NCBI GenBank assembly: GCA_045639725.1
Contig: JAZUDR010000239.1
Coordinates: 1-49,153, forward strand
Source of the DNA: Candidatus Avigastranaerophilus sp.
Lineage (GTDB): Bacteria > Muiribacteriota > Ozemobacteria > Ozemobacterales > Ozemobacteraceae
Direction: 5' to 3'
Length of the DNA: 49,153 nt
The notes below the pieces were generated by a model. The model was not told the DNA's origin and did no database searches. It saw only the letters and a list, made by a program, of their open reading frames with translations. Each line of letters starts with the position of its first letter. Within the stretch, counting starts at the first letter, position 1. Position numbers and translations under genes: made by a program. Shown here piece after piece: positions 1,561 to 15,782 of the stretch.

Positions 1561-2643
1561 ATGGCTAAGCGATTGATGAAAGGCTGTGAAGCATTGGCTG
1601 AAGCAGCCATTCTGGCCGGCTGTAGATATTATTTTGGTTCACCAGTAGCCCAGCAGAGTGAATTGTCTTCATATCTGATTAAGCATTTGGCACTGGTTGG
1701 CGGTTCTTATGTTCAAGCCGCAGATGAAATTTCTGCAATAAATATGGTTTATGGCGCCTCTGCAGCAGGTGCGCGCGTTATGACCGCTGGTTCAAGCACC
1801 GGAATGAGCCTCAAACAAGAAGGAATTTCTGGTATTGCTGCTTCTGAACTTCCATGTGTAATAGTAAACACTATGTGTGGCGGTTCTGTAGCAGGTGCTT
1901 CATGTCCAGCCCAGGCAGACTATTGGCAGGCAACCCGTGGCGGTACACATGGCGATTATAGAAACATCGTTCTTGCACCAAATTCCGTTCAGGAAATGGC
2001 TGATATGACTATTGCCGGCTTTAATTATGCAGACAGATTCAGAACTCCTGTTTTGATATTAGCTGATAGTATTGTATCCCAGATGATGGAACCTGTAGAA
2101 CTCCCAGAATCTCCATTAGACTATGATATGGATAGCAAAAAATGGTCTCTCGGTCTTCCTGGAACCAGCAAGCACAACAAGAATGTCTGTGCTTCTACCT
2201 TTACTGTTCAGGACGAGCTTGAAGAACACAACTGGCATCTTTATCAGAAGTATCAGGTTATTGGTAAACATTTTACTGAAGAAAACAAAGACCTGGCTAT
2301 TGAAGAATATATGTGCGATGACGCAGAAATCGTTCTTGTAGGCTATGGAATCATCGCCAGACTTCTTAAGACCGTTGTTGAAAAATGTAGAAAACGCGGT
2401 GTTAAGGCTGGTCTTGCCAGACCAAAGGTTTTGTGGCCATTCCCAACTCAGGCTTTCAAGAAGCTTGCTCAGAATACTGAAAAATTCATGGTTATTGAGA
2501 TGTCCTGCGGCCAGATGGTCGAAGACGTTAAGATGGCTGTGAACGGTTCTAAGCCTGTATACTTCTTTGGTAGAACCGGCGGCGCTGTTCCTTCTGATTT
2601 CGAAATCTTCAACGAAGTCAGCAAATTGGTTTGCTTAGACTGA
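1561..2643 (+). CDS. 2-oxoacid:ferredoxin oxidoreductase alpha-subunit-like protein (divergent)
   Basis: KGCEALAEAAILAGCRYYFGSP..., DEISAINMVYGASAAGARVMTAGSS and GTHGDY all match the KorA/PorA layout. The usual GYPITPSSE and RGGPSTGLPT motifs are altered to GSPVAQQSE and CGGSVAGASCPA. Confidence 0.7.
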   Translation: MAKRLMKGCEALAEAAILAGCRYYFGSPVAQQSELSSYLIKHLALVGGSYVQAADEISAINMVYGASAAGARVMTAGSSTGMSLKQEGISGIAASELPCVIVNTMCGGSVAGASCPAQADYWQATRGGTHGDYRNIVLAPNSVQEMADMTIAGFNYADRFRTPVLILADSIVSQMMEPVELPESPLDYDMDSKKWSLGLPGTSKHNKNVCASTFTVQDELEEHNWHLYQKYQVIGKHFTEENKDLAIEEYMCDDAEIVLVGYGIIARLLKTVVEKCRKRGVKAGLARPKVLWPFPTQAFKKLAQNTEKFMVIEMSCGQMVEDVKMAVNGSKPVYFFGRTGGAVPSDFEIFNEVSKLVCLD

Positions 2644-2657
2644 AAGGAGAAGACGAA

Positions 2658-3263
2658 ATGACTATGAATTTTCAACCAGATACTTTCCAGACCATGGTTG
2701 TGGAAGCTGTAAACAAAGTAAATCCTAAGAAGGGTATTGTTGGTGTTGCACCAGTAAGCTGTGGCGCATTTATATACGATGGTTTTGATTTCGACTTCTG
2801 TCAGTCTGTTCCAGGCTGCGCTCCTGCTGTTGCTTCCGGTATCAAAAGAGTAAGACCGGATGCTTTGGTATTTACTTATCAGAATGCTGTAGACCTCGCT
2901 GCTGCTGGTATTTCTGAAGTAATTCATGCTGCAAATAGAAACGAAAACGTAACCGTAATTTATATAAACAACGGTGGAGCAGGCTTCGACGGTGAAAATA
3001 GCGGTAGAATCAAGCTTTGCGAACTTGTTTCCAGCATCGGGAATGCTGCTTATGTCACTAGAGTTGCTGCTACAGAAAAAGACCAGACTGCTGCTGTTAA
3101 AGCTGTTGAAAACGCTTTCAAGCTTCAGCTGGAAGGTAAAGGCTTCACTTTTGTAGAAATCCTTTCTGTCTCTGATGATGAAGATGATCCAGAATCTAAG
3201 GCTTTATTGGCTGATTTGCCTGTTAAGACCTTTAAAGATAATTTTGGCGTTGAAAAAGCCTGA
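2658..3263 (+). CDS. 2-oxoacid:ferredoxin oxidoreductase beta-subunit-like protein (short, TPP/Mg motif degenerate)
   Basis: I prefer the internal ATG at 2658, with AAGGAG at 2644..2649, over the track start at 2631. EVIHAANRNENVTVIYINNGG aligns to the HxxRRN...NN part of the TPP-binding motif. The upstream GDG is QNA, and the N-terminal CPGCG region is missing. Confidence 0.6.
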   Translation: MTMNFQPDTFQTMVVEAVNKVNPKKGIVGVAPVSCGAFIYDGFDFDFCQSVPGCAPAVASGIKRVRPDALVFTYQNAVDLAAAGISEVIHAANRNENVTVIYINNGGAGFDGENSGRIKLCELVSSIGNAAYVTRVAATEKDQTAAVKAVENAFKLQLEGKGFTFVEILSVSDDEDDPESKALLADLPVKTFKDNFGVEKA

Positions 3264-3285
3264 CACTGAATAAAGGAGCAAAAAT

Positions 3286-3879
3286 ATGTCTTCAACTGTA
3301 GAAAGAGTAATATTGGCTGGTTTCAGTGGTCATGGTATTTTCTTTATGGGAAATGTTATGGCTGAAGCAGGCATGAGAGCCGGCAAAAATGTTTCTTTGG
3401 TTCCTTCATATAGCTCAGAACCAAAGGGCGGGCTTATCAACTGCGCTCTGCTTATGTCTGAAAAGGAAATCGCATCTCCGATGATTACTGTTCCTGATAC
3501 AGTAATTGCTATGAATAGAACTTCTGTAAATAAATTCAATCAGAAGATTAAAGGCGGCGGAATGCTGATGTATAACTCTTCTTTGATTGACCGCCAGGAA
3601 TTCCGCGATGATATAAGACTTGTCGAAATTCCCGCAACTGAAATAGCTGCTGACTTGGGAGAACAGAAATATGCCAATATGGTGATGGCTGGCGCTTATG
3701 CCAAGTTTAGCAAATTAATCACAATCGAAGAAATTGAAAATTCTCTCAGATTCTTATTGAAGGATGAAGACAAGGAAGTTATCGAGCTCAATCTTGAAGC
3801 AATCAAGAAGGGTTATGATTACGTTGAAGAAAAGAAATACATGTTTGGCCGTTATGTCCATTCTGTATTCCGTGTATGA
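3286..3879 (+). CDS. 2-oxoacid:ferredoxin oxidoreductase gamma-subunit-like protein
   Basis: VILAGFSGHGIFFMGNVMAEAG...SYSSEPKGG...SPMITVPDTVIAMN follows the POR-gamma pattern (GxGGQG...YGPExRGG...SP). Compact operon spacing with an RBS. Confidence 0.7.
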   Translation: MSSTVERVILAGFSGHGIFFMGNVMAEAGMRAGKNVSLVPSYSSEPKGGLINCALLMSEKEIASPMITVPDTVIAMNRTSVNKFNQKIKGGGMLMYNSSLIDRQEFRDDIRLVEIPATEIAADLGEQKYANMVMAGAYAKFSKLITIEEIENSLRFLLKDEDKEVIELNLEAIKKGYDYVEEKKYMFGRYVHSVFRV

Positions 3880-3891
3880 CTTGGAGTAAAT

Positions 3892-4230
3892 ATGTCACAG
3901 TTACCAGAACTCATTAAAATCGTTGTAGAACAGCTTCAGGACAAAAAGGCTGAAGATTTGGTTGTTCTTGATGTCAGAAAATTAGTTAATTACACAGATT
4001 ATCTGATTATTGCTACAGGTAATTCTGCACCTCATGCCCAGACTCTGGCTGATTCTGTTGGTAAGCTTATAAAGAGACCAGAAGAAGGTATCAAACAGGA
4101 AACTGACCCGACTTCAAACTGGTTGCTTATTGACGGCGGCGAATTCATTCTCCATGTATTCCAGCCAAATGCCAGAAAGTTCTATAATCTTGAAGACCTC
4201 TGGGAAGAAGCCGAAAGAGTAGAAATCTAA
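3892..4230 (+). CDS. rsfS: Ribosome silencing factor RsfS (iojap family)
   Basis: 112 aa. DYLIIATGNS...WLLIDGGEFILHVFQPNARKFYNLEDLW is the typical RsfS signature. GGAG RBS present. Confidence 0.85.
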   Translation: MSQLPELIKIVVEQLQDKKAEDLVVLDVRKLVNYTDYLIIATGNSAPHAQTLADSVGKLIKRPEEGIKQETDPTSNWLLIDGGEFILHVFQPNARKFYNLEDLWEEAERVEI

Positions 4231-4268
4231 TCTTATTTCCATACCCCCCCTAACCCCGGCTGTTTATT

Positions 4269-4967
4269 ATGATTCCTCATTGCCGCATAATTGAACCTAA
4301 TCTTTGTGGAGCACTCAGCGATGATAATCGTCATCGCATTGAACGTGTTCTGCGTTTACGGCCAGGTGATAAATTTGTTATTACCGATGGTTGTGGCAAT
4401 GAGGCAGAAGCTGTTTTGGAAAAGAACGGCCAATACAGTGCCGAAGCCTGGACTGAACCAGGTCGTGAACCGGATGTGGAAGTAACCCTTTTTGTGGCTA
4501 TTTCCAAAGGTGACCGTCTCGAATGGATAATTGAAAAAGCAGTAGAGATGGGAGTTAGACGCATCGTTCCTATTATTTCTGATAGATGTATTGTTAAGGA
4601 TCCAAGCAAAGGGAAAGCAGAGCGCTGGCAGAAAATCGCTGAATCTGCAATGATTCAGTGCGGCGGTTGTATTCTTCCTGAAGTAACTGCACCGGTGAAG
4701 CTTAATTCAATAGAAAAGCCAAAAGACGATGTTTACCCGGTTCTGTTACACGAAGAAACCTTAGATTGTTCTATTAAAGGCCTACAGGAAACCTCCTGCA
4801 GGAAGATATGGGTTGCTTCCGGACCAGAAGGTGGCTTTACTGATGCCGAAGTAAAATATTTTATTGATTCTGGCTGGAAAACAATATGGCTTGGCAAGCG
4901 TCTTTTCCGTATGGATACCGCTCCAATATTTGCTATTGCCAATATCATTGCTCCACGCTTGTTTTAA
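4269..4967 (+). CDS. rsmE: 16S rRNA (uracil1498-N3)-methyltransferase RsmE
   Basis: 232 aa. HRIERVLRLRPGDKFVITDG is the N-terminal PUA-like region, and SGPEGGFTDAEV is the SPOUT C-terminal motif. Confidence 0.8.
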   Translation: MIPHCRIIEPNLCGALSDDNRHRIERVLRLRPGDKFVITDGCGNEAEAVLEKNGQYSAEAWTEPGREPDVEVTLFVAISKGDRLEWIIEKAVEMGVRRIVPIISDRCIVKDPSKGKAERWQKIAESAMIQCGGCILPEVTAPVKLNSIEKPKDDVYPVLLHEETLDCSIKGLQETSCRKIWVASGPEGGFTDAEVKYFIDSGWKTIWLGKRLFRMDTAPIFAIANIIAPRLF

Positions 4968-5059
4968 GGCCTTTTACAAGCCACTAAACTATTATAAAAT
5001 AATTATAAACTATTTCCACTTATTGATGGTATACTTGTACAACGTTAAGGGAGTTGTAT

Positions 5060-6541
5060 ATGAAAAATAATCTGTCTCGTACATTGTTGATTCTAACAGC
5101 TTTAATGCTTATTAATAGCTATGACTCCAATTGTTATGCTTCACCATTCAGTGATGATGGAGACTTGTCTATAAAGGATAAAATTTCTGAAGGCTATAAG
5201 AACCTTAAGAAAAAAGCTAATGATGTTAAGGAAGATATCGTTGACGCAGTTTCTGATGGTTATGAAACTGTAAAAGATAAAGCAAGTGATATAAAAGAAG
5301 ACTTTGTAGAAGGGGTTGGAATTATTAAAGATACTATCAGCGACAAGGCTGATAAGGCAAAAAAGAAAGTAACCAGCGGTGCCGGCTCTGTTAAGAATTT
5401 CTTTGTTGATGGCTATCAGTCTGTTACAAAGAAGATAAATTCTGCATTTAATAACGATAGCTACCCGGGTTACATCAATAATGCTATTTTCTTGCCTGGT
5501 CACGAAAGTAAGGAAATGGTATGTCAGGGTATTGCATTCTTGAAGGTTGATGTAAAGAACGATTCTAATCAGGTTACAGGTACTTTTGACAGATATATTC
5601 TTCTTTCATATTATCCCAAATCAAGTGATCAGCCATCTCAGCTTGTTGTAATAGACAGAGCTAATGGCAATGGCAAACCAATCAGACGTTTCCCATTATA
5701 TAAGAGCGAAAGCAAGGCTTATACTGGTCATGCCGGCGGTATTGCTGTTGCAGGCAATTATGTCTGGGTTGCTTCTGGAAACAAGATTTTTGGTTTCAGC
5801 AAAGATGAAATACTTGATTTTATAAATGAAACAAATGTTCAGGCTGAAGCTGTAAATGGCTTGCCTGATAGCTTTGATGAACTTCCTGCCAAGAACCTGA
5901 TTTGTAAGCAGAGCTATGGCGTAGATAGTAAAGCTAGCTATGTAAGCTTTGACGGCACCTATATTTGGGTTGGCGACTTCACTAAGGCCTCCAGTAGTGA
6001 TTACAAGCCTGTAAAACATCATAAGGCTTTTGACCGTAATTGCTGGATAGCCGGTTATAAGGTGGATTCAACTGGTATGCCAACTTCTGATACAGAATAT
6101 ACATATACTGCAGGCGATTCCAGTTATACTGTTCATAAGCCGGACGCAGTTATTGCTATGCGTGAATCTGTTCAGGGTATGGCTGTATGTGGTAATCATG
6201 TTGCATTGACTATTTCATACGGTGCTCAGAATTCTAAGCTGGCCTTATACAATAACCCATTAACAACTGGCGCTACTCAATTCTCATATAAGCCGGCAGG
6301 GCAGGATGAAACCTTTACTGTTGACGCATGGGAACTTGAAAACAAGAAGAACTGGGTTAATACAGTAACTCTTGCTGCAGGCGCAGAAGACCTCGAATAC
6401 GATGGTAAAGACCTTTATGTAACCTTTGAATGCTCTTCAAAGAACTATAGGCAGAAATGGATTAACATAAATCCAACTATTAAACTGACTGACGATTTCT
6501 ACCTGATTGATGTAGATAAAGCAGTCGCTTATGATGACTAA
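5060..6541 (+). CDS. Secreted protein of unknown function (N-terminal amphipathic K/D/E repeats, large C-terminal globular domain)
   Basis: ATG at 5060 follows AAGGGAG; the track start at 5054 is TTG. A signal-peptide-like LLILTALMLINSYDSNCYA is present. Repeated ...DVKEDIVDAVSDGYETVKDKASDIKEDFVEG... units follow. I recognise no family for the C-terminal part. Confidence 0.6.
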   Translation: MKNNLSRTLLILTALMLINSYDSNCYASPFSDDGDLSIKDKISEGYKNLKKKANDVKEDIVDAVSDGYETVKDKASDIKEDFVEGVGIIKDTISDKADKAKKKVTSGAGSVKNFFVDGYQSVTKKINSAFNNDSYPGYINNAIFLPGHESKEMVCQGIAFLKVDVKNDSNQVTGTFDRYILLSYYPKSSDQPSQLVVIDRANGNGKPIRRFPLYKSESKAYTGHAGGIAVAGNYVWVASGNKIFGFSKDEILDFINETNVQAEAVNGLPDSFDELPAKNLICKQSYGVDSKASYVSFDGTYIWVGDFTKASSSDYKPVKHHKAFDRNCWIAGYKVDSTGMPTSDTEYTYTAGDSSYTVHKPDAVIAMRESVQGMAVCGNHVALTISYGAQNSKLALYNNPLTTGATQFSYKPAGQDETFTVDAWELENKKNWVNTVTLAAGAEDLEYDGKDLYVTFECSSKNYRQKWININPTIKLTDDFYLIDVDKAVAYDD

Positions 6542-6569
6542 TCTATAGCTTTTTAACTCCCTTTCATGC

Positions 6570-6610
6570 GCGGGGCTGTCTGAATACTCAGGCGGCCCCG
6601 CGTCTTTTAT
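6570..6610 (+). terminator. Rho-independent terminator after the secreted-protein gene
   Basis: The stem is cgcggggc (6570..6577) paired with gccccgcg (6596..6603), followed by tctttta. Confidence 0.65.
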
Positions 6611-6780
6611 CTCTCCAAACCACGCCAAAACAGTGCCAACCAGGCGACGCTGCCGCCAACAATGCCCACCAAACCAACAGCCTTATTGATAACATACCTT
6701 TTACTTTCTTTTATTTCATTTTTATATATGTTTACATAATATTTTATATTTTACTGTTTAAAAAATAAGCAAAATTTGAC

Positions 6781-6834: not shown

Positions 6835-9800
6835 TTATTTTTGAGTCATTCCACCGTTGCGGCCATACTTGGCGTGGGCGTTGGTGAATTCATCTGAAGC
6901 CATTGCGCCAGTAATTGATATTTCGGCTGCAAGAACGGTTGCAGCAAGGATTTCAGCAAGCTTCTTGGCTTTGCCTGGACCTGAGCACTGCATGATTTCA
7001 AGGCATTTCTTCTGGGTTGGAAGTCTTGTTCCGCCGCCAACAGTGCCGACCATTATGTCTGGCAATGTTACGCTGACCTGAAGGTCACCGTCAATCAGTT
7101 TCATATAGGTTGTACCACAGGCTGATTCAGCAACACAGGCCGGGTCCTGACCACAGGCAATGTATACTGCAGCCAGTGGGTTGGCGTAATGAGCCTGAAC
7201 ACCGTAAGAATGAGCCTGTAATGAGGTTATCATTGTTAATTCGCCCAATCTGACGATTCTTTCCGGAGTAGTGTGCAGGAACTGCTTAACAATGTCGGCT
7301 GGAATGCGGACAACGGCAGTAACCTTCTTGCCGCGGTTTCTAGTGAAGTTAACAGCGTTAACCTTCTTGTCGCCGGAGAGGTTGGATTCCAGGAACCAAT
7401 CGTAAATAGAGCCGTCATAAGCATTGAGGATATAATCAATTGCAGCTCTTGTTGCAATAGTTGTCATATTCTGACCAGATGCATCACCAGTTGAATATAC
7501 GAATCTGAGAACCATCTGAGTGCCGATTGGATACTGTTCTACTTCTAGAAGCTTACCAAACTTAGTTGTGCTGTCGGCTGCTTTCTTTATAGCCGCAAAG
7601 TTGTTTTCAATCCATTTACCGAATTTTTCAAGATTTGAAAGGGTATCGAATTCAAAAACAGGTGTTCTTATGAGACTGTCAGCAAGAATGCGGACTTCAG
7701 CGCCACCTGACATTGTAATTATCTGGCAGCCGCGTGCTACAGATGATACCAGTGCTCCTTCGGTTGTTGCCAATGGAACATAGAAATCACCGTCAGCTTC
7801 CTGGCCTTTTACCTTTAATGGGCCAACAACGCCGATAGGAAGTGTTACAAAGCCTGCGAAGCCTTCAATATTGCCAGAATATGCTTCTGGATCATCTGGT
7901 TTGGGCAAAGAGAAATTCTGATTGCTGAGATTGTTTCTGATGAATTCCTGTCTTGCTTCAATTGCTTCAAGAGAATAATCCAGCAGTGGAGGCATATCTT
8001 TTGAGGAAGCGGTATCAGAACGGTCTGTTTCGCTTATTTTGCTTGTATCAACGTGAGTGGCAAGGAAAGAGAACAGATCGTCGAAGGTTTCGACAGAGCT
8101 GCCAATCAGTTCCTTGAAGGAAATGCCGAAGCGTTTTTCAAGCTTTAACAGCATTGCAATAATGCCGAGAGAGTCTAACTGAATGAAAGAGTCAAGTCTG
8201 GTTGTTAACTTGATTTTTTGATAGTCAGCCTTCAAGAAATCTGCAATTTCTTTGCGGAAAGCATCGAAGAGCTGTTCATTTCTTGGAGCAGAACTAATCT
8301 TTTCGTCCTTATGACCTAATTCAGCTGGCTTGTGGTCTTTGCCACTTAATGCGTCGGCTAATTCAAAACGTTTAACCTTGGCACTTGCTGAGCGTGGAAG
8401 CGGCGCGCCAAGCATGAAGATTTTTCTGATTTTTTCTGGTTCTGGCCAGTCTTCTGTTCTTGTGCGGATGTCGTTTTCAACAAATGCGAGCACGTCTTTA
8501 GCGTCTTTGCCTTCAAAAACACCCTTGCGAGGAACAAAAGCCAAAGCTGGAACTTCAAGGTTATCAAGCATAATGCCGAAAACAGAGTATTCTTCAGCAT
8601 ACTTTAACATTCCAAGTCTTACTTCAAGTTCATCCGGGTAGACATTTACGCCTGAACCGGAAATGATTACTTCCTTGGCTCTACCACGGATGTAGATATT
8701 ACCAGCTTCGTCTGTAGCTGCTAAGTCACCGGTTTTGAAGAAACCGTTTTCGAACAGACTCTGGTCTAATTCAGGCTGACCATAGATGCCTGAGAACATT
8801 GTTGGTGAGGATACTAATAATTCACCGACTCCGTTTTCGGGATTGGCAATCTTGAATTTTACTTCTTCCAGTGGCTTACCAATTGAATCTGGAGGACAAT
8901 TATTGTTGAAAATAATGCCTGCACAGGTTTCGGTCATGCCCCAGCCCTGAGAGATGTGCATACCCTTGGAGGCTAATAGCATCAAGGTCTTGGGGTTTGG
9001 AGCTGCGCCGCCAACAACGATGTTCAATGGTGGGAGCTTTAAGTCCGGGTTCTGCATGAATGTCATTGCAAGCAAATCGCAAAGTCTTGGAACTGCAAGC
9101 AGGAACTTGGACTGATATTTCATTATCAGACCAAACATTTCAGCAGGATTCAATGTGTTGCAGATAATTGTAGTGCAGTGCCAGTAAAGGGGAGCGATAC
9201 CTGATTCAACAAGGGCAAATACATGGCTGAATGGGAGAATTGCAACAACTTTATCACCTGCACAGCAGTTAACAAATTTCTTTGCTAATTTGGCTGCTTC
9301 GATGAAAGCCTTATGGCTAAGCATGATTCCCTTGGGTTTGCCTGTTGTGCCAGAAGTATACATTAATGCGGCGATATCATGAGGTTTAGGGTCACGATCT
9401 GCTGGATTATGACTGCTGTTATTGGCTTTTATCAGGATTTCATATTCATCTTCGAATATGAATTTGGGCTTATAGTCTTCTGGGATATACTGATTGAAGC
9501 GCTGAGAATATTTGCGCATCATTACGATTGCGGCTGGTTTACTGTTTTCAATTACTGCCTGGAATCTATCTATAGCTGTGTTCCCGTCTAATGGAACTGC
9601 AATTTTGCCAGAACTTGCAATGCCAAGAAAAATAGGCATCCAAAGAAGATGGTTTTCGGTAACCATGAGGACTCTTTCGCCTCTGGTAATGCCAACTTTA
9701 TTCAGTGCTTCCGTTATTTCCTGGGATTTTTCTTCTAATTGCTTATAAGTAAGCTTTGAAACTTTTCCAGCCTGTTCAAATACTAGGGCATCAACATCTG

Positions 9801-9843
9801 CAACTTCGCTGATATTGGCCATTTTCAGTGTATCGCCAAACAT
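6835..9843 (-). CDS. Tri-domain fusion: acyl-AMP/CoA ligase (adenylation) - phosphopantetheine carrier - class-I-like HMG-CoA reductase domain
   Basis: I prefer the ATG at 9843 with AGGAG upstream; the track start at 9867 is TTG. Adenylation motifs are YTSGTTGKPKG (nt 9327..9359), GWGMTET and FKTGDLA. The carrier motif is QLDSLG, with the Ser codon at 8170..8172. HMGR motifs are LPIGVVGPL, VPLATTEGALVSS (around 7756..7776), NRGKKV, GDASGQN and GTVGGGT. Confidence 0.85.
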   Translation of the reverse strand: MFGDTLKMANISEVADVDALVFEQAGKVSKLTYKQLEEKSQEITEALNKVGITRGERVLMVTENHLLWMPIFLGIASSGKIAVPLDGNTAIDRFQAVIENSKPAAIVMMRKYSQRFNQYIPEDYKPKFIFEDEYEILIKANNSSHNPADRDPKPHDIAALMYTSGTTGKPKGIMLSHKAFIEAAKLAKKFVNCCAGDKVVAILPFSHVFALVESGIAPLYWHCTTIICNTLNPAEMFGLIMKYQSKFLLAVPRLCDLLAMTFMQNPDLKLPPLNIVVGGAAPNPKTLMLLASKGMHISQGWGMTETCAGIIFNNNCPPDSIGKPLEEVKFKIANPENGVGELLVSSPTMFSGIYGQPELDQSLFENGFFKTGDLAATDEAGNIYIRGRAKEVIISGSGVNVYPDELEVRLGMLKYAEEYSVFGIMLDNLEVPALAFVPRKGVFEGKDAKDVLAFVENDIRTRTEDWPEPEKIRKIFMLGAPLPRSASAKVKRFELADALSGKDHKPAELGHKDEKISSAPRNEQLFDAFRKEIADFLKADYQKIKLTTRLDSFIQLDSLGIIAMLLKLEKRFGISFKELIGSSVETFDDLFSFLATHVDTSKISETDRSDTASSKDMPPLLDYSLEAIEARQEFIRNNLSNQNFSLPKPDDPEAYSGNIEGFAGFVTLPIGVVGPLKVKGQEADGDFYVPLATTEGALVSSVARGCQIITMSGGAEVRILADSLIRTPVFEFDTLSNLEKFGKWIENNFAAIKKAADSTTKFGKLLEVEQYPIGTQMVLRFVYSTGDASGQNMTTIATRAAIDYILNAYDGSIYDWFLESNLSGDKKVNAVNFTRNRGKKVTAVVRIPADIVKQFLHTTPERIVRLGELTMITSLQAHSYGVQAHYANPLAAVYIACGQDPACVAESACGTTYMKLIDGDLQVSVTLPDIMVGTVGGGTRLPTQKKCLEIMQCSGPGKAKKLAEILAATVLAAEISITGAMASDEFTNAHAKYGRNGGMTQK

Positions 9844-9965
9844 GAGTAAAAACTCTCCTGTATACAATTTTTCAGTGAAGCATTATATCAGAAATTTATA
9901 AATAAAAAAAGACCTCTCTATTAGATGGTTGCCTAAAAATATAAAAAAGACAAAATAAATATTTT

Positions 9966-11210
9966 TCAGGCTCTTTCTACTAATAGTCCTTGTTTATCTG
10001 CTTTAATGCCTTTGGCCAGCATTAGTGTATTACACATAGCTGAGTCGTTACATTGCATACGGCAGGGCACATATTCTTTGGAATAGCCATGTATCCAGCC
10101 ATCTTCAATGGTTTCCCACAATATTTCGACCTGACGCCCTTCAAATTTTTTGAAAAACTCATATGCATACTTTTGCCAAACTGCTTCAACACGGTCTGAA
10201 CGTTCTATCTTGACTTCATTTCTGATCTGGTTTGGCATTGTTGCGGCCGGGGTTCCGTCGCGCTGTGAATATCTGAAGATGTGAATCTTGGAAAATTTTA
10301 TTTCATCAAGAAAGTTTAAAGTTTCCTGGAAGTCTTCTTCGGTTTCGCCTGGGAAGCCTACAATAAGGTCTGTGGTTAAGGCAGCATCGGGCATTGTTTT
10401 TCTTACATGGTCTATTACTGCTTTGAATTCAGCGGTAACATAGGGTCTGTGCATACCTTTCAGCACTTTATCGCAGCCTGACTGAAGAGGAATATGGAAA
10501 TGATGGCATGATTTTGGGGAAGTGGCCATCCATTCTATAAGCTCGTCCTTTACTTCGATTGATTCTATTGAGCTTAATCTTATGCGTTCCAGTCCTTCTA
10601 TTTTTTCTAATTCCTTCAGAAGTGGAACTAGTGAAGGTTTGTAGTGACCAACGTGGATACCTGCCAAGACAAGTTCCTTGTGACCTTCTGCAACAAGCTC
10701 TCTAGCTTCTTTTACTGCGTCTTCGATAGGTCTGGACCATTCAGGGCCTCTTAGATGAGCGACTATACAGTATGAGCAGAACTGACTGCAACCATCCTGA
10801 ACCTTCAGGTAGGCTCTTGTCATATCGCTTACTGGAGCGTGTTTTATCTGGTTTTCATTGCAGCATTTTATATCAAGTGAAAGCGCTGACATCATTTTCT
10901 TTAATGATTCTTCGTCACCATAAGGAAGTAGCCAGTCTACTTCAGGAACATTGCTGTGGCGCTTTTCTACCAATCTAGCTTCGCAGCCTGCTAATACAAT
11001 TTTGCTATCAGCTTTGCCGCGTCTTACTGCTCTGATAATCTGGTTGGCTTTCTGTGAAGCACGACCAGTAACAGAACAACCATTAAGAATGAACAGGTCT
11101 GGCTGTTTTTCGCTTTCTTCCAAACCAAATTTTCTTAATTTTTCTGCTATTCTTTCGCCGTCATATTGGCTAACCTTGCAACCAAGGGAACGTATATAAA
11201 ATGTTGTCAT
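9966..11210 (-). CDS. mtaB: MiaB/MtaB-family radical SAM tRNA methylthiotransferase (MtaB-like)
   Basis: The N-terminal UPF0004 region reads YIRSLGCKVSQYDGE...NGCSVT. The radical SAM motif is CSQFCSYCIV. A C-terminal TRAM-like region is present. Confidence 0.75.
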   Translation of the reverse strand: MTTFYIRSLGCKVSQYDGERIAEKLRKFGLEESEKQPDLFILNGCSVTGRASQKANQIIRAVRRGKADSKIVLAGCEARLVEKRHSNVPEVDWLLPYGDEESLKKMMSALSLDIKCCNENQIKHAPVSDMTRAYLKVQDGCSQFCSYCIVAHLRGPEWSRPIEDAVKEARELVAEGHKELVLAGIHVGHYKPSLVPLLKELEKIEGLERIRLSSIESIEVKDELIEWMATSPKSCHHFHIPLQSGCDKVLKGMHRPYVTAEFKAVIDHVRKTMPDAALTTDLIVGFPGETEEDFQETLNFLDEIKFSKIHIFRYSQRDGTPAATMPNQIRNEVKIERSDRVEAVWQKYAYEFFKKFEGRQVEILWETIEDGWIHGYSKEYVPCRMQCNDSAMCNTLMLAKGIKADKQGLLVERA

Positions 11211-12778: not shown

Positions 12779-13576
12779 TCAAATTCTTCCGTTGATCCAA
12801 TACCACACCAAGCCTATCCATTCATGCATTGCTGCCCTGAACATTGACATATTGTCATCTGCGTAGACCGTTGTCTGGTTATTATGTGACGGGGCGGGGT
12901 AGACTTCTTCGAAGCCTGCTTTTTTGAATGTGAGACATGAACGGTAAATATGACCGTTACTGGTTGTTAGAAGTATTTTGCTGATACCATCCTCTGCCAG
13001 TCGCTTTCTGGCATAAGTGGCTTCTGTTTCCGTTGTTTTTATTTCTTCGCTTTTGAAAATAGTAATCTTGTCCTGGGGTATATCAAGCATCTGGGTTAAA
13101 GAAGCGACAGCATAATATTCCTGTAATTCATTGATAGGCGAGAACCCGGTGCTGATGTAAAGGTGTTCAGCCTGTCCGTTTTTTACAAGCTCGGCACCAT
13201 GAATTATTCTCTGGTAAGTCGCATAACATGGGTCGCCAGCCAGAGTTGCACCAGAAGCAAGGACAAGAACAGCTTTTGCTTTTTGTGTGGAATGCTCCAT
13301 TATTAGTGGCACTGTCATGTAACCGCCTATTGGAAAAGCCATTATTAGCAGAATAAAAGCAAAAATAATGCATGAACCTTTTTGAAAATCTATCTGATGT
13401 TCGCGCAGTATGCTGTTTTTTATGGCAGAGTTGTCTTTGAATATGTATATAAGTGATGCTATAGCATAGATTATGGCAAAGAAATACGAGGGTACTACGT
13501 GCAATTGTTGATATATTATAAAAGCGATAAAAGGTAGCAGCAAAAACACAAGTTTACATAATAATTTTGATTTCAT
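12779..13576 (-). CDS. DUF218 (YdcF/ElyC/SanA-like) membrane protein
   Basis: N-terminal TM helices are followed by VLVLASGATLAGDP...RIIHGAELVKNGQAEHLYISTG and LLTTSNGHIYRSCLTFKKAG, the typical DUF218 blocks. Confidence 0.65.
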   Translation of the reverse strand: MKSKLLCKLVFLLLPFIAFIIYQQLHVVPSYFFAIIYAIASLIYIFKDNSAIKNSILREHQIDFQKGSCIIFAFILLIMAFPIGGYMTVPLIMEHSTQKAKAVLVLASGATLAGDPCYATYQRIIHGAELVKNGQAEHLYISTGFSPINELQEYYAVASLTQMLDIPQDKITIFKSEEIKTTETEATYARKRLAEDGISKILLTTSNGHIYRSCLTFKKAGFEEVYPAPSHNNQTTVYADDNMSMFRAAMHEWIGLVWYWINGRI

Positions 13577-13583
13577 ACTTCTG

Positions 13584-15782
13584 TTATTTTCTTTGTCGAG
13601 TTATGGTAGTATTGCGCTGAACAAATCGCCAGCACCATTTTGCGAGCTTTTCTCTTAATACTAAGTGATTTTCTATGCACTCATCAAAGCAGTTATCATT
13701 AAGGATTAGCCTTAATTGCTCCTGAGCTGCCTGATAAAGAGTGCGACCATCCTCTAGTATTTCTGCCAGCTGAGTATCTACAACCCTTTCAGAATGAAAG
13801 GAATTCATGATTGAATCGGCTAATATCGCCATCGTCAGATAGCGGTCTTTGACAATAATATCTACCGACATTTCTTCCCGTGATAGTGGCGGATTCATTC
13901 TGGAACTTATTCTGTTCAGAATTTCATAGCCGGGTAGGGCTAACATAAAAATGTGGGCCTGAAGTAAACGTTCAGGTTCTTTTTTGAAAAGCTCTCTATT
14001 CATGTTGAACAGCCTGTAATAGAGATTCTGGCTTTCTACCGATAAACTGTTTACTGGAATGATTTCTTCGGATTTGTCCAAGTTATTATTTGGTATTCTT
14101 GGCAAATCACTTATCATATCGTCCATTGCGCCAACAATTTCAGGATTAGTGAATGGGTTAACAGGCTTTGAATCAGGCGCAAGAACAATTGTTTTATGTT
14201 CTTTGCCTAATAAGGTTGGCATTGCTTTTGAGTGCTGATCTATGCAGATTTTCACATCCTGCGGTCCAGGGAGTTTTCTTACAGGTATTTTGGTCAGATT
14301 TGGCTTTCCGCCAGCTTTTTCTACTAGTATCTTTATTTGCCATTTGTTAAAGGCTGTGGTAGCTAGCAATAATAGTGAATATATGGCTATAATTGTTGTT
14401 GTCCCCATGTTTCCAACGTAAAAATACATTCCTGGTATAGATTTGGCGTATTCCAAAAAACCTAAGAGAGTATCTAGCAAAACAGATAAACCTGGAGACA
14501 GGAACACTGCTAACGGTATGGAAATCATTGATAAAATGGCTATGAAAAAGGCCGTTGGAAGTATGAATGTAAAGGTCCAAAGTATCAATGGGTTAACAAG
14601 CAGGGCAGAAATAGAAACAGTGCCGAAAAGATACGCAACCATAGGCATTGTTCCAATATTGGCTGCAAATGTTACTGCAAGATATCTGCTTAATACATCC
14701 GGCATGTGTAATTTCGATATCGCAAATTCAAAAGGCTTGCGTAGGAAAATTATTGATAATACTGCTATAAAGCTTAATACGAAGGCCGCGCTTTTTAATA
14801 GGGCAGGGTCGTAAAGAAGCATAATGAAAGCTGCTATTGATATTGGTCGTATTGGTGACGATGCTGATTCCAGATGTATGACTGTTGCTACTGAAATATA
14901 CATTATCAGTGCGCGCCATATTGAGGGACTGCCGACTGTTACTGTTGCATAGAATGCCAGCATGATTGATATCAATACGCTTCTTGATATTGGCGGTATC
15001 TTAAACCAATGAAGTATAGAGGCAACTAGAAATACCAGTATCATAATATGCTGACCGGATATTGCCAGCAGATGACTTACACCGGTTTCTGTGAAAATGC
15101 TTTTATCAGAAATCTGTGCTGTGTCTCCAAGTATGAAACCGGCTATCATGGCTGCGTGCTCTTTCTTTAATACAGAAGTTAAACCATGAATGATTTTTCC
15201 TTGAATTGTTTTGGAAACTGCGGATAAAGAATTGACACCGGATTCAAAGTTTGTAAAGCTGGCTACATTGAAGGTTGGACGCTTATCGAAGTCGATAATT
15301 CTCATGGTGCCTGTCATTGAATAATACTGCTCTGGATAAAGTCTTTCGCGATTAACTGTGCATCTGCAGTTTATTTCGATTGGAAGTGTTATTTCCTGTT
15401 CATTTGTCTGATAGACAAGCTTATCGAAAGTATAATTGATTTTGTTGCCGGATCTGTTTGATTTGCCTGTATAGCGCCCTGATAATGTGCCTGTTGAGTT
15501 GTCTAGCAGCAGTAAATCTGAAAAGTCAGTTTCGGGTAAATATCTGACAGAACCATAAAACATTGATGAGAACAATGCTGCGACAAGAAGGCTGACTGTT
15601 TTATGCTGATTGTTTTTCAGGAAAAACGATAGGACGAATGCGCCCAAAGCAAGGCCTAGCCATGCAATGTAAGAATCAGATGTGAATCTTTCAGATAGCA
15701 AAAGACCTGATATGAATATTGCTACAAAAATAGAGAATATTTCAGGATAAGAATTGAATAGCTTTGGAGTTTTCTTTTTCAT
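13584..15782 (-). CDS. comEC: ComEC/Rec2 DNA internalisation channel (no recognisable metallo-beta-lactamase domain)
   Basis: The competence-domain hallmark TGVSHLLAISGQHIMIL sits within a polytopic membrane core. The C-terminal ~230 aa are soluble and helical, with no HxHxDH motif. Confidence 0.8.
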   Translation of the reverse strand: MKKKTPKLFNSYPEIFSIFVAIFISGLLLSERFTSDSYIAWLGLALGAFVLSFFLKNNQHKTVSLLVAALFSSMFYGSVRYLPETDFSDLLLLDNSTGTLSGRYTGKSNRSGNKINYTFDKLVYQTNEQEITLPIEINCRCTVNRERLYPEQYYSMTGTMRIIDFDKRPTFNVASFTNFESGVNSLSAVSKTIQGKIIHGLTSVLKKEHAAMIAGFILGDTAQISDKSIFTETGVSHLLAISGQHIMILVFLVASILHWFKIPPISRSVLISIMLAFYATVTVGSPSIWRALIMYISVATVIHLESASSPIRPISIAAFIMLLYDPALLKSAAFVLSFIAVLSIIFLRKPFEFAISKLHMPDVLSRYLAVTFAANIGTMPMVAYLFGTVSISALLVNPLILWTFTFILPTAFFIAILSMISIPLAVFLSPGLSVLLDTLLGFLEYAKSIPGMYFYVGNMGTTTIIAIYSLLLLATTAFNKWQIKILVEKAGGKPNLTKIPVRKLPGPQDVKICIDQHSKAMPTLLGKEHKTIVLAPDSKPVNPFTNPEIVGAMDDMISDLPRIPNNNLDKSEEIIPVNSLSVESQNLYYRLFNMNRELFKKEPERLLQAHIFMLALPGYEILNRISSRMNPPLSREEMSVDIIVKDRYLTMAILADSIMNSFHSERVVDTQLAEILEDGRTLYQAAQEQLRLILNDNCFDECIENHLVLREKLAKWCWRFVQRNTTITRQRK

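What the first reader, a model, noticed from the sequence alone, without database searches (positions are those of the whole stretch)
6835..9843. Adenylation - carrier protein - HMG-CoA-reductase-domain fusion: a predicted 4-electron carboxylate-to-alcohol reductase unrelated to SDR-type R domains
One polypeptide combines three parts:
- An acyl-AMP/CoA ligase domain (YTSGTTGKPKG, GWGMTET, FKTGDLA).
- A phosphopantetheine attachment site (QLDSLG).
- A class-I-like HMGR catalytic domain (VPLATTEGALVSS, NRGKKV, GDASGQN, GTVGGGT).

HMGR chemistry reduces a thioester to a primary alcohol using 2 NAD(P)H. Tethered to an A-T didomain, it would act on a carrier-bound acyl group. That would be analogous to carboxylic-acid reductases and NRPS terminal R domains, but with a different fold.

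No mevalonate-pathway genes are nearby, so a role in isoprenoid synthesis is unlikely. By my eye alignment, the position of the catalytic His of class I HMGR (AAGHLVKSH) reads ASDEFTNAH. That could fit a pantetheine rather than CoA leaving group, but the alignment is uncertain.

The substrate is unknown. Fatty or hydroxy acids leading to alcohols for ether or unusual lipids are one possibility.
Basis: partly seen in the sequence, partly recalled or inferred. Interest (0 to 1): 0.65.

Follow-up and report, generated by a model that had tools for sequence, protein, structure and literature searches.

The report
Fatty-acid-to-alcohol reductase fused to its loader
One 1002-residue protein joins a fatty-acid-activating domain, a carrier domain and a reductase that looks like HMG-CoA reductase but belongs to the fatty-acyl reductase family FcrA described in 2025. 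It most likely turns a fatty acid into a fatty alcohol and has nothing to do with isoprenoid synthesis.

Summary
A single intact minus-strand gene (6835-9843, 1002 aa) encodes three parts:
- a FadD-type adenylation domain;
- a carrier domain with the phosphopantetheine serine (S558);
- a full-length class-I HMG-CoA-reductase fold.

The fusion is no assembly artefact. It is intact in about 70 homologues and in 2 of 11 families of its phylum (Riflebacteria).

The reductase is not a mevalonate enzyme.
- The catalytic residues, including the His, are invariant.
- The three HMG-pocket positions carry the signature published for FcrA, an HMGR homologue shown in 2025 to reduce C14+ acyl-CoA to fatty alcohol (PMC11948995). 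Human S684 is Glu here, K735 is deleted and L862 is Phe.
- In my tree the domain falls on the FcrA-like side of a 100%-supported split from canonical HMGRs.
- The genome has IspG and IspH. I found no HMG-CoA synthase, no mevalonate kinase and no second HMGR.

However, the reductase family is already described, and that paper's Fig. S11 legend already flags "FadD+ACP" fusions.

Still open:
- where the alcohol goes, since I found no wax synthase and no AGPS-type domain;
- why a formyltransferase-like gene follows the fusion in about 45 relatives but is missing from this genus.

The parts
6835..9843 (-). Whole CDS, 1002 aa plus stop: FadD-type A domain, carrier (T) domain and FcrA-type HMGR-fold reductase
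   Evidence: Open frame. Pfam. Full-length homologues. AF2 model.
8338..9798 (-). Adenylation (ANL/FadD-type) domain, residues about 16-502, including the C-terminal subdomain and invariant K489 (assigned as the A10 lysine from its motif position, which is my knowledge and not a tool result)
   Evidence: Pfam AMP-binding 6e-62. NCBIfam PRK06187 long-chain-fatty-acid-CoA ligase covers residues 19-502. The nearest solved structure is M. tuberculosis FadD13, 3r44, 5e-38. K489 is invariant.
8029..8277 (-). Carrier (T/ACP-like) domain, residues 523-605. The phosphopantetheine serine S558 (codon 8170-8172) lies in 'QLDSLG'.
   Evidence: PP-binding E 0.0027 in this copy; it matches in 29/43 homologues, best 1e-12. 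S558 is conserved in 41/43. The AF2 4-helix bundle has helix 2 starting at S558, and the flanking linkers 504-520 and 606-614 have pLDDT below 50.
6859..7962 (-). FcrA-type class-I HMGR-fold reductase domain, residues 628-995. The catalytic residues E695, K826, D900 and H990 are kept. The pocket signature is E819 (codon 7387-7389, human S684), a deletion at human K735, and F986 (codon 6886-6888, human L862).
   Evidence: Pfam HMG-CoA_red 1.6e-110. PDB alignments. Family-wide residue counts. Tree. Signature as published in PMC11948995.
9855..9890 (-). Putative translation and transcription signals: AGGAG at 9859-9855, 11 nt before the ATG, and TGnTATAAT at 9890-9882
   Evidence: Read directly from the sequence. 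This is a consensus resemblance only. The promoter scan did not list it, because it lacks a -35 match.
6568..6603 (.). GC-rich 16-bp hairpin between the convergent genes, a likely shared terminator
   Evidence: Terminator-like site. It lies about 230 nt past the stop of the fusion gene.

Best explanation
The gene encodes a self-contained fatty acid reductase of the FcrA type.

Proposed steps:
1. The N-terminal FadD-like domain adenylates a free, probably long-chain, fatty acid.
2. The acyl group is passed to the phosphopantetheine arm on S558 of the protein's own carrier domain.
3. The arm delivers the thioester to the C-terminal HMGR-fold domain.
4. That domain uses HMGR chemistry. A first hydride from NAD(P)H gives a hemithioacetal. 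It collapses with H990 protonating the leaving thiol. A second hydride then reduces the bound aldehyde, releasing a primary fatty alcohol.

Shown here:
- the domain architecture and its conservation;
- intact catalytic residues;
- the FcrA pocket signature and placement on the FcrA-like side of the tree;
- no mevalonate pathway found in the genome.

Taken from the literature: FcrA activity (C14+ acyl-CoA to alcohol, NADPH-dependent, no activity on HMG-CoA, statin-insensitive).

Inferred:
- that the thioester reduced here is carrier-bound rather than CoA-bound;
- the chain length;
- the use of NADPH.
For: - Architecture and fold.
- Conservation as one ORF: about 70 homologues. In the phylum, family f1 has it in most genomes and family f11 in 9/9.
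- Catalytic residues invariant: E695, K826, N888 and H990 in 43/43; D900 in 42/43.
- FcrA signature: E819 in 43/43 at human S684, no Lys at human K735, F986 in 43/43 at human L862. These are the three differences PMC11948995 reports between FcrA and HMGR.
- Across 99 aligned domains, all 6 canonical HMGRs read S/K/L. All 93 bacterial HMGR-like domains lack K735 and carry F or W at L862, and most have E or D at S684 (8 have S, A or T; 2 outliers differ further).
- Tree: canonical versus FcrA-like split at 100% SH-aLRT. The Riflebacteria fusion clade is at 100%. The FcrA-like side includes Promineifilaceae and Caldilineaceae, relatives of the organism whose FcrA was characterised.
- Genome (97.8% complete): the only PF00368 hit is this gene. 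IspG and IspH are present. No HMG-CoA synthase C domain was found. Mevalonate kinase gave only sub-threshold GHMP hits.
- The A domain is closest to long-chain FadD enzymes.
- A related locus, L008, places a 33%-identical fusion among lipid genes: A-T-PlsC, a NAD_binding_4 reductase, ACP and FtsX permeases.
Against: - No biochemical data exist for any A-T-fused member. The characterised FcrA sits in a different subclade (Trp at L862, N-terminal Lad domain).
- No phosphopantetheinyl transferase was found in this assembly. 24/26 relatives, including 5/6 congeners, have one, so an assembly gap is likely.
- The known consumers of fatty alcohols were not found: no WS/DGAT and no FAD-oxidase_C, hence no AGPS.
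- PP-binding is below Pfam's gathering score in this particular copy.
- Comparison of CoA-contact residues does not discriminate carrier-bound from CoA-bound substrate.
- The tight linkage to a formyltransferase-like gene in relatives is not explained by simple fatty alcohol synthesis.
Confidence: 0.68

Rival explanations
1. The FadD domain makes free acyl-CoA in the ordinary way, and the FcrA domain reduces acyl-CoA as the characterised enzyme does. The carrier domain is only an accessory lipid-handling or shuttle module, as PMC11948995 suggests for the Lad and ACP extensions.
For: - The characterised FcrA uses acyl-CoA.
- The A domain is closest to true CoA ligases such as FadD13.
- FadD-FcrA fusions without any carrier domain exist: P0077, AMP-binding plus HMG-CoA_red, 902 aa, 99 member sequences.
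- R568 and S565, two CoA contacts, are retained.
Against: - The Ppant serine is conserved in 41/43 members at the start of helix 2. This is hard to explain if the arm is not used.
- Flexible linkers flank the carrier domain, as in A-T-R enzymes.
- The CoA contacts N567, K722 and S865 are changed to A/S, H and A, though many stand-alone FcrA-like proteins show the same changes.
Confidence: 0.17
2. The substrate is not a plain long-chain fatty acid but another carboxylic acid, for example a hydroxy-, amino- or short or branched acid. The alcohol would be an intermediate of a specialised lipid or metabolite pathway that ancestrally also needs a 10-formyl-THF-dependent transferase.
For: - A 252-aa Formyl_trans_N-like gene with an intact N-H-D triad lies immediately downstream in about 45 of 47 fusion-bearing genomes outside this genus.
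- Some relatives add UbiA-like, Rph/PEP-synthase-like and DUF3419 genes.
- HMGR-like domains are also fused to DUF3419 and to APH/EcKL kinases.
- PMC11948995 reports that 12 of 59 modelled FcrA pockets fit only smaller molecules.
- No wax synthase or AGPS was found here.
Against: - The A domain shows acyl-CoA-synthetase-type similarity rather than NRPS amino-acid type. PRK06187 scores 232 bits against 153 bits for AA-adenyl-dom, which is below its cutoff.
- This genus keeps the fusion intact (83-100% identity) without the formyltransferase-like gene, so that partner is dispensable for the fusion's function here.
Confidence: 0.13
3. It is a genuine HMG-CoA reductase making mevalonate, with an unrelated N-terminal fusion.
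For: - The NCBIfam best hit is TIGR00533, HMG_CoA_R_NADP.
- It shares 42-43% identity with archaeal HMGR 6hr7.
Against: - The score is below the equivalog cutoff (358.6 against 441.8 bits).
- The HMG-carboxylate binders are lost: S684 is Glu and K735 is deleted.
- No HMG-CoA synthase or mevalonate kinase was found, and the MEP-pathway genes IspG and IspH are present.
- The domain falls outside the canonical clade at 100% support.
Confidence: 0.02

Closest known systems
FcrA, the HMGR-fold fatty acyl-CoA reductase (Ca. Promineifilum breve Pb-FcrA; Natronomonas pharaonis FcrA; ISME J 2025, PMC11948995)
   Same: - Class-I HMGR fold with the E/K/D/H catalytic set.
- Glu at human S684, loss of K735 and a bulky aromatic residue at L862.
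- The host lacks the mevalonate pathway.
- Falls on the same side of the canonical versus FcrA-like split.
- The paper's Fig. S11 legend already lists 'FadD+ACP' as one of two N-terminal fusion types.
   Different: - The characterised enzymes carry an N-terminal Lad beta-domain, have Trp at L862 and act on free acyl-CoA.
- This protein sits in a separate, well-supported Riflebacteria subclade, has Phe at L862, and carries its own adenylation and carrier domains.
- No fused member has been assayed.
- The host has no wax synthase.
Carboxylic acid reductases (CAR; A-T-R) and NRPS terminal R domains
   Same: The logic is the same: adenylate a free acid, load it on an in-cis phosphopantetheine arm, and reduce the thioester with NADPH.
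   Different: - The CAR and NRPS R domain is an SDR (NAD_binding_4) fold. CAR stops at the aldehyde after 2 electrons.
- Here the reductase has the HMGR fold and is expected to go to the alcohol in 4 electrons without releasing the aldehyde.
ElbD of Myxococcus (FadD-ACP-FAR-PlsC multidomain ether-lipid enzyme)
   Same: FadD plus ACP fused to a fatty-acyl reductase, with a lipid-cluster context in distant relatives (L008).
   Different: ElbD's reductase is the SDR-type FAR, and ElbD carries a PlsC-like domain. Neither is present here.
Canonical class-I HMG-CoA reductase (human 1DQ8/1DQA; M. thermolithotrophicus 6HR7)
   Same: Fold, dimer-interface active-site residues, the NADPH-site motif family (DAxGxN, GTVGGGT) and the C-terminal helix with the catalytic His.
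   Different: The HMG-binding residues are changed, there is no mevalonate pathway, and the phylogenetic placement is outside the canonical clade.

Membership tests
FcrA (HMGR-fold fatty acyl reductase, PMC11948995) | Class-I HMGR homology and fold | tested here: met
   PF00368 full length, 1.6e-110. 6hr7 at 2.5e-91. Foldseek TM 0.78.
FcrA (HMGR-fold fatty acyl reductase, PMC11948995) | Catalytic Glu559, Lys691, Asp767 and His866 conserved | tested here: met
   E695, K826 and H990 are 43/43 in the family; D900 is 42/43.
FcrA (HMGR-fold fatty acyl reductase, PMC11948995) | Ser684 replaced by Glu | tested here: met
   E819 is invariant, 43/43.
FcrA (HMGR-fold fatty acyl reductase, PMC11948995) | The HMG-carboxylate Lys (K735; printed 'Lys795' in the paper) replaced by a small residue or lost | tested here: met
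   One-residue deletion or Leu at that position, and no Lys in residues 866-875 of any member.
FcrA (HMGR-fold fatty acyl reductase, PMC11948995) | Leu862 replaced by a bulky residue | tested here: met
   F986 is invariant, 43/43. The characterised subclade has Trp.
FcrA (HMGR-fold fatty acyl reductase, PMC11948995) | Placement in the monophyletic FcrA clade, apart from canonical class-I HMGR | tested here: met
   100% SH-aLRT split: 93 FcrA-like against 6 canonical. Promineifilaceae and Caldilineaceae relatives stood in for them.
FcrA (HMGR-fold fatty acyl reductase, PMC11948995) | NADPH-dependent reduction of C14+ acyl thioester to alcohol, with no HMG-CoA activity and no statin inhibition | not testable with these tools
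   This needs an enzyme assay.
Canonical HMG-CoA reductase (EC 1.1.1.34) | HMG-binding residues S684 and K735, and a score above the equivalog cutoff | tested here: not met
   E819, and a deletion at K735. TIGR00533 scores 358.6, below the 441.8 cutoff.
Canonical HMG-CoA reductase (EC 1.1.1.34) | Genomic context of a mevalonate pathway | tested here: not met
   No HMG_CoA_synt_C. No mevalonate kinase above cutoff. IspG and IspH are present. The genome is 97.8% complete.
Carboxylic acid reductase (CAR, A-T-R) | A domain plus carrier domain in cis | tested here: met
Carboxylic acid reductase (CAR, A-T-R) | SDR/NAD_binding_4 reductase domain | tested here: not met
   No SDR-family hit on the protein. 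The reductase has the HMGR fold.
Functional carrier domain (holo-T) | A phosphopantetheinyl transferase encoded in the genome | tested here: inconclusive
   None was found in this assembly: PF01648, TIGR00556, and tblastn with a congener's PPTase. It is present in 24/26 relatives, including 5/6 congeners.

The most novel reading that the evidence does not exclude
The Riflebacteria A-T-FcrA may be a CoA-independent, single-polypeptide, 4-electron carboxylic acid reductase that reduces the acyl group on its own pantetheine arm. Ancestrally it may work as an obligate pair with a 10-formyl-THF-dependent transferase, and in some lineages with UbiA-like, Rph-like kinase and BtaA-like (DUF3419) enzymes, to build an undescribed alcohol-derived lipid such as a formylated or amino-carboxypropylated alkyl lipid. 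This genus would have lost the later steps and kept only the alcohol-forming step.
Probability: 0.25. Interest if true: 0.65.

Novelty: new member of a known kind. Interest (0 to 1): 0.35.

Why it matters
- **Annotation.** Databases name these proteins 'hydroxymethylglutaryl-CoA reductase' or 'AMP-binding protein'. Read that way, a mevalonate step would be credited to an organism for which I found only MEP-pathway genes (IspG, IspH) and no mevalonate genes.
- **Biochemistry.** A fused A-T-FcrA would take a free fatty acid to the alcohol in one polypeptide, without CoA and without a separate aldehyde reductase. That is a compact alternative to CAR plus alcohol dehydrogenase for making fatty alcohols. 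It would also be the first HMGR-fold enzyme acting on a carrier-bound thioester.
- **Biology.** Riflebacteria have no cultured model. The fate of the alcohol is unknown, since I found no wax synthase or AGPS-type domain. The near-universal formyltransferase-like partner points to lipid chemistry that has not been described.

Tried and rejected
- **Canonical HMGR or mevalonate role.** Rejected on pocket residues, tree placement and genome content.
- **Frameshift or assembly chimera.** Rejected on conservation as one ORF across independent assemblies.
Rejected.
- **Local operon clues.** The neighbours are housekeeping genes: 2-oxoacid:ferredoxin oxidoreductase, RsfS, RsmE, a MiaB-like radical SAM enzyme, an M20 peptidase, ComEC and LigA. 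The convergent 495-aa secreted protein has no family hit.
- **Relatives' partner genes in this genome.** Not found: formyltransferase-like, UbiA-like, DUF3419.
- **Known fatty-alcohol consumers.** Not found: WS/DGAT and FAD-oxidase_C, hence AGPS.
- **PPTase.** Not found in this assembly.
- **CoA-contact residues as a test of carrier-bound against CoA-bound substrate.** Inconclusive.
- **Literature.** Searches for the fused architecture under several phrasings found only PMC11948995. The Istvan 2000 paper is not held.
Full report
**1. What is there**

The window carries an uninterrupted minus-strand frame at 6835-9867.
- The biological start is the ATG at 9843. It is preceded by AGGAG at 9859-9855 and a TGnTATAAT at 9890-9882.
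- It coincides with the aligned N-termini of homologues; M1 is at least 90% conserved.

Pfam finds three domains:
- AMP-binding, residues 16-354, 6e-62;
- PP-binding, residues 528-577, E 0.0027, just under the gathering score;
- HMG-CoA_red over its whole profile, residues 628-995, 1.6e-110.

The carrier domain is real despite its weak score in this copy.
- The same region matches PP-binding in 29 of 43 family members, best 1e-12.
- The 'DSLG' serine (S558) is kept in 41/43.
- An AlphaFold2 model (mean pLDDT 80.8) folds residues 523-605 into a four-helix bundle whose second helix begins at S558. Low-confidence linkers flank it at 504-520 and 606-614.
- Foldseek matches the model to archaeal and human HMGR (TM 0.75-0.78) and to an ANL ligase (TM 0.77).

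**2. It is not an artefact**

- A search of 5.8 billion proteins returned about 70 full-length homologues of about 1000 aa (33-99% identity) with the same architecture. Where they are named, they come from Candidatus Riflebacteria or Ozemobacter MAGs.
- I searched 87 genomes of the phylum. The intact full-length ORF is present in most of the window's own family and in 9/9 genomes of a second family. It is absent from most of the others.
- Seven genomes of the window's genus, counting its own, hold it at 83-100% identity with no stops.

**3. The reductase domain is FcrA-type, not a mevalonate enzyme**

The alignment to solved HMGRs shows the catalytic set intact.

| Human residue | This protein |
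|---|---|
| E559 | E695 |
| D690-K691-K692 | D825-K826-K827 |
| N755 | N888 |
| D767 | D900 |
| H866 | H990 |

By my count back from the C-terminus of human HMGR (my own knowledge of that sequence), H866 is the His of 'LVKSH'. It aligns with 'FTNAH', and H990 is invariant in the family.

Three pocket positions do differ:
- human S684 is Glu (E819, 43/43);
- the HMG-carboxylate partner K735 falls in a one-residue deletion, and no Lys lies nearby;
- human L862 is Phe (F986, 43/43).

A full-text search found that exactly these three changes define FcrA (PMC11948995; ISME J 2025).
- FcrA is a class-I HMGR homologue whose representative from Ca. Promineifilum breve reduces C14+ acyl-CoA to fatty alcohol with NADPH.
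- It does not reduce HMG-CoA and is not inhibited by simvastatin.
- The paper reports that FcrA sequences form one clade and occur in bacteria without a mevalonate pathway.
- Its Supplementary Fig. S11 legend names two N-terminal fusion types, 'FadD+ACP' and 'Lad'.

I tested membership directly. I fetched 80 named loci, extracted the HMGR-like domain of each, and aligned them. I added further fusion types and six canonical enzymes: human, M. thermolithotrophicus, a Bathyarchaeote, two plants and a nematode.
- All six canonical enzymes read S/K/L at the three positions.
- All 93 bacterial HMGR-like domains lack K735 and carry F or W at L862. Most have E or D at S684; 8 have S, A or T, and 2 outliers differ further.
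- A maximum-likelihood tree (IQ-TREE quick search, LG+C20) splits canonical from FcrA-like at 100% SH-aLRT.
- The Riflebacteria fusions form their own clade, also at 100%.
- That clade is separate from the one holding Promineifilaceae, Caldilineaceae and Hymenobacter proteins with the roughly 160-aa N-terminal extension and Trp at L862. Those are relatives of the organism whose enzyme was characterised.

**4. Genome context**

The window's assembly (3.86 Mb, 365 contigs, 97.8% complete) gave these results:
- This gene is its only PF00368 match.
- IspG and IspH are present.
- No HMG-CoA synthase C domain was found.
- Mevalonate kinase gave only sub-threshold GHMP hits.

Isoprenoids therefore appear to come from the MEP route, though I tested only IspG and IspH. 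The local neighbours are housekeeping genes.

The A domain resembles long-chain fatty-acid ligases: PRK06187 across residues 19-502 and M. tuberculosis FadD13 as the best structure.

**5. How it most likely works**

A free fatty acid is adenylated and loaded on S558-phosphopantetheine. It is then reduced in two NAD(P)H steps at the HMGR-type site, through a hemithioacetal and a bound aldehyde, and the alcohol is released.
- Assignment of the reductase to the FcrA type is well supported.
- The carrier-bound route is inferred from the conserved serine and the linker architecture.
- The main rival is that the FadD domain releases acyl-CoA for the reductase and the carrier domain is accessory, as PMC11948995 suggested.
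- A comparison of published CoA-contact residues across groups was not discriminating.

**6. Loose ends**

(a) No PPTase is detectable in this assembly. In contrast, 24/26 relatives, including 5/6 congeners, have an Sfp-type one. An assembly gap is the simplest reading.

(b) Neither WS/DGAT nor any FAD-oxidase_C protein, hence no AGPS, was found. The fate of the alcohol in this organism is unknown.

(c) A formyltransferase-like partner is tightly linked in relatives but absent here.
- In about 45 of 47 fusion-bearing genomes outside this genus, a 252-aa Formyl_trans_N-like gene follows the fusion on the same strand within 10-100 bp (coordinates).
- Its Asn-His-Asp triad is intact: 'INIHHGLLPDNRG…DDG'.
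- All seven genomes of this genus lack it.
- Some relatives add UbiA-like, Rph/PEP-synthase-like and DUF3419 genes.
- FcrA-like domains are elsewhere fused to DUF3419, to APH/EcKL kinases and to PilZ.
- These links suggest that FcrA-made alcohols feed several undescribed pathways.

**7. Verdict**

- It is wrong on the His, and the novelty is overstated. The reductase family and the FadD+ACP fusion type were published in 2025.
- This protein is a new, uncharacterised member in a distinct Riflebacteria subclade.

Noticed in passing
Relatives: L011 13017-13772, L012 13018-13773, L013 10529-11284, L015 about 13036-13791; absent from the window and its genus: A 252-aa Formyl_trans_N-like gene with an intact N-H-D triad lies immediately downstream of the A-T-FcrA gene. 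This holds in about 45 of 47 fusion-bearing Riflebacteria genomes outside this genus. It is missing from all 7 genomes of the window's genus. No known fatty-alcohol pathway explains a formyltransferase partner.
   Followed up: partly
L006/L011 14003-19807; L007/L015 14356-15270: In some relatives, the fusion and the formyltransferase-like gene are followed by four more genes. They are a UbiA-like membrane prenyltransferase homologue, a 920-aa PEP-synthase/Rph-like phosphotransferase, a DUF3419 (BtaA-like) protein and a LolA/TP_0789-like protein. Together they look like an undescribed lipid cluster.
   Followed up: partly
Proteins P0071, P0075, P0078, P0076, P0083-P0101, P0073, P0074, P0077: FcrA-signature HMGR-like domains occur in several other fusions:
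- with DUF3419;
- with PilZ;
- with APH/EcKL-type kinases in cultured Streptomyces, Actinomadura, Nonomuraea and Rhodococcus;
- as A-T-FcrA-kinase (about 1490 aa);
- as FadD-FcrA without a carrier domain (902 aa).

The kinase fusions suggest alcohol phosphorylation.
   Followed up: partly
Whole genome G000: No phosphopantetheinyl transferase was detectable in the assembly with PF01648, TIGR00556, or tblastn with a congener's enzyme. Yet 24/26 relatives have one. This is probably an assembly gap.
   Followed up: yes
L017, L027, L034, L035, L042 and other Vibrio loci: The long-puzzling Vibrio class-I 'HMGR' carries Asp at S684, the K735 deletion and Phe at L862, and groups on the FcrA-like side of the tree. 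This fits the view of PMC11948995 that most bacterial class-I 'HMGRs' are not mevalonate enzymes.
   Followed up: partly
window 5054-6541 (+): A convergent 495-aa protein has an N-terminal signal-peptide-like segment and no family match. Homologues lie next to the fusion in L010 and within 10 kb in L011.
   Followed up: partly
window 1561-4967 and 9966-11210, compared with L007/L015: The block 2-oxoacid:ferredoxin oxidoreductase, RsfS, RsmE and MiaB-like radical SAM is syntenic with Ca. Ozemobacter. In the window, the segment from the radical SAM gene to the fusion is inverted relative to it.
   Followed up: no
window 6589-6696: An earlier first-reader note proposes a 35-codon mini-ORF in the spacer downstream of the fusion gene, overlapping the 6568-6603 hairpin. 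I did not examine it.
   Followed up: no
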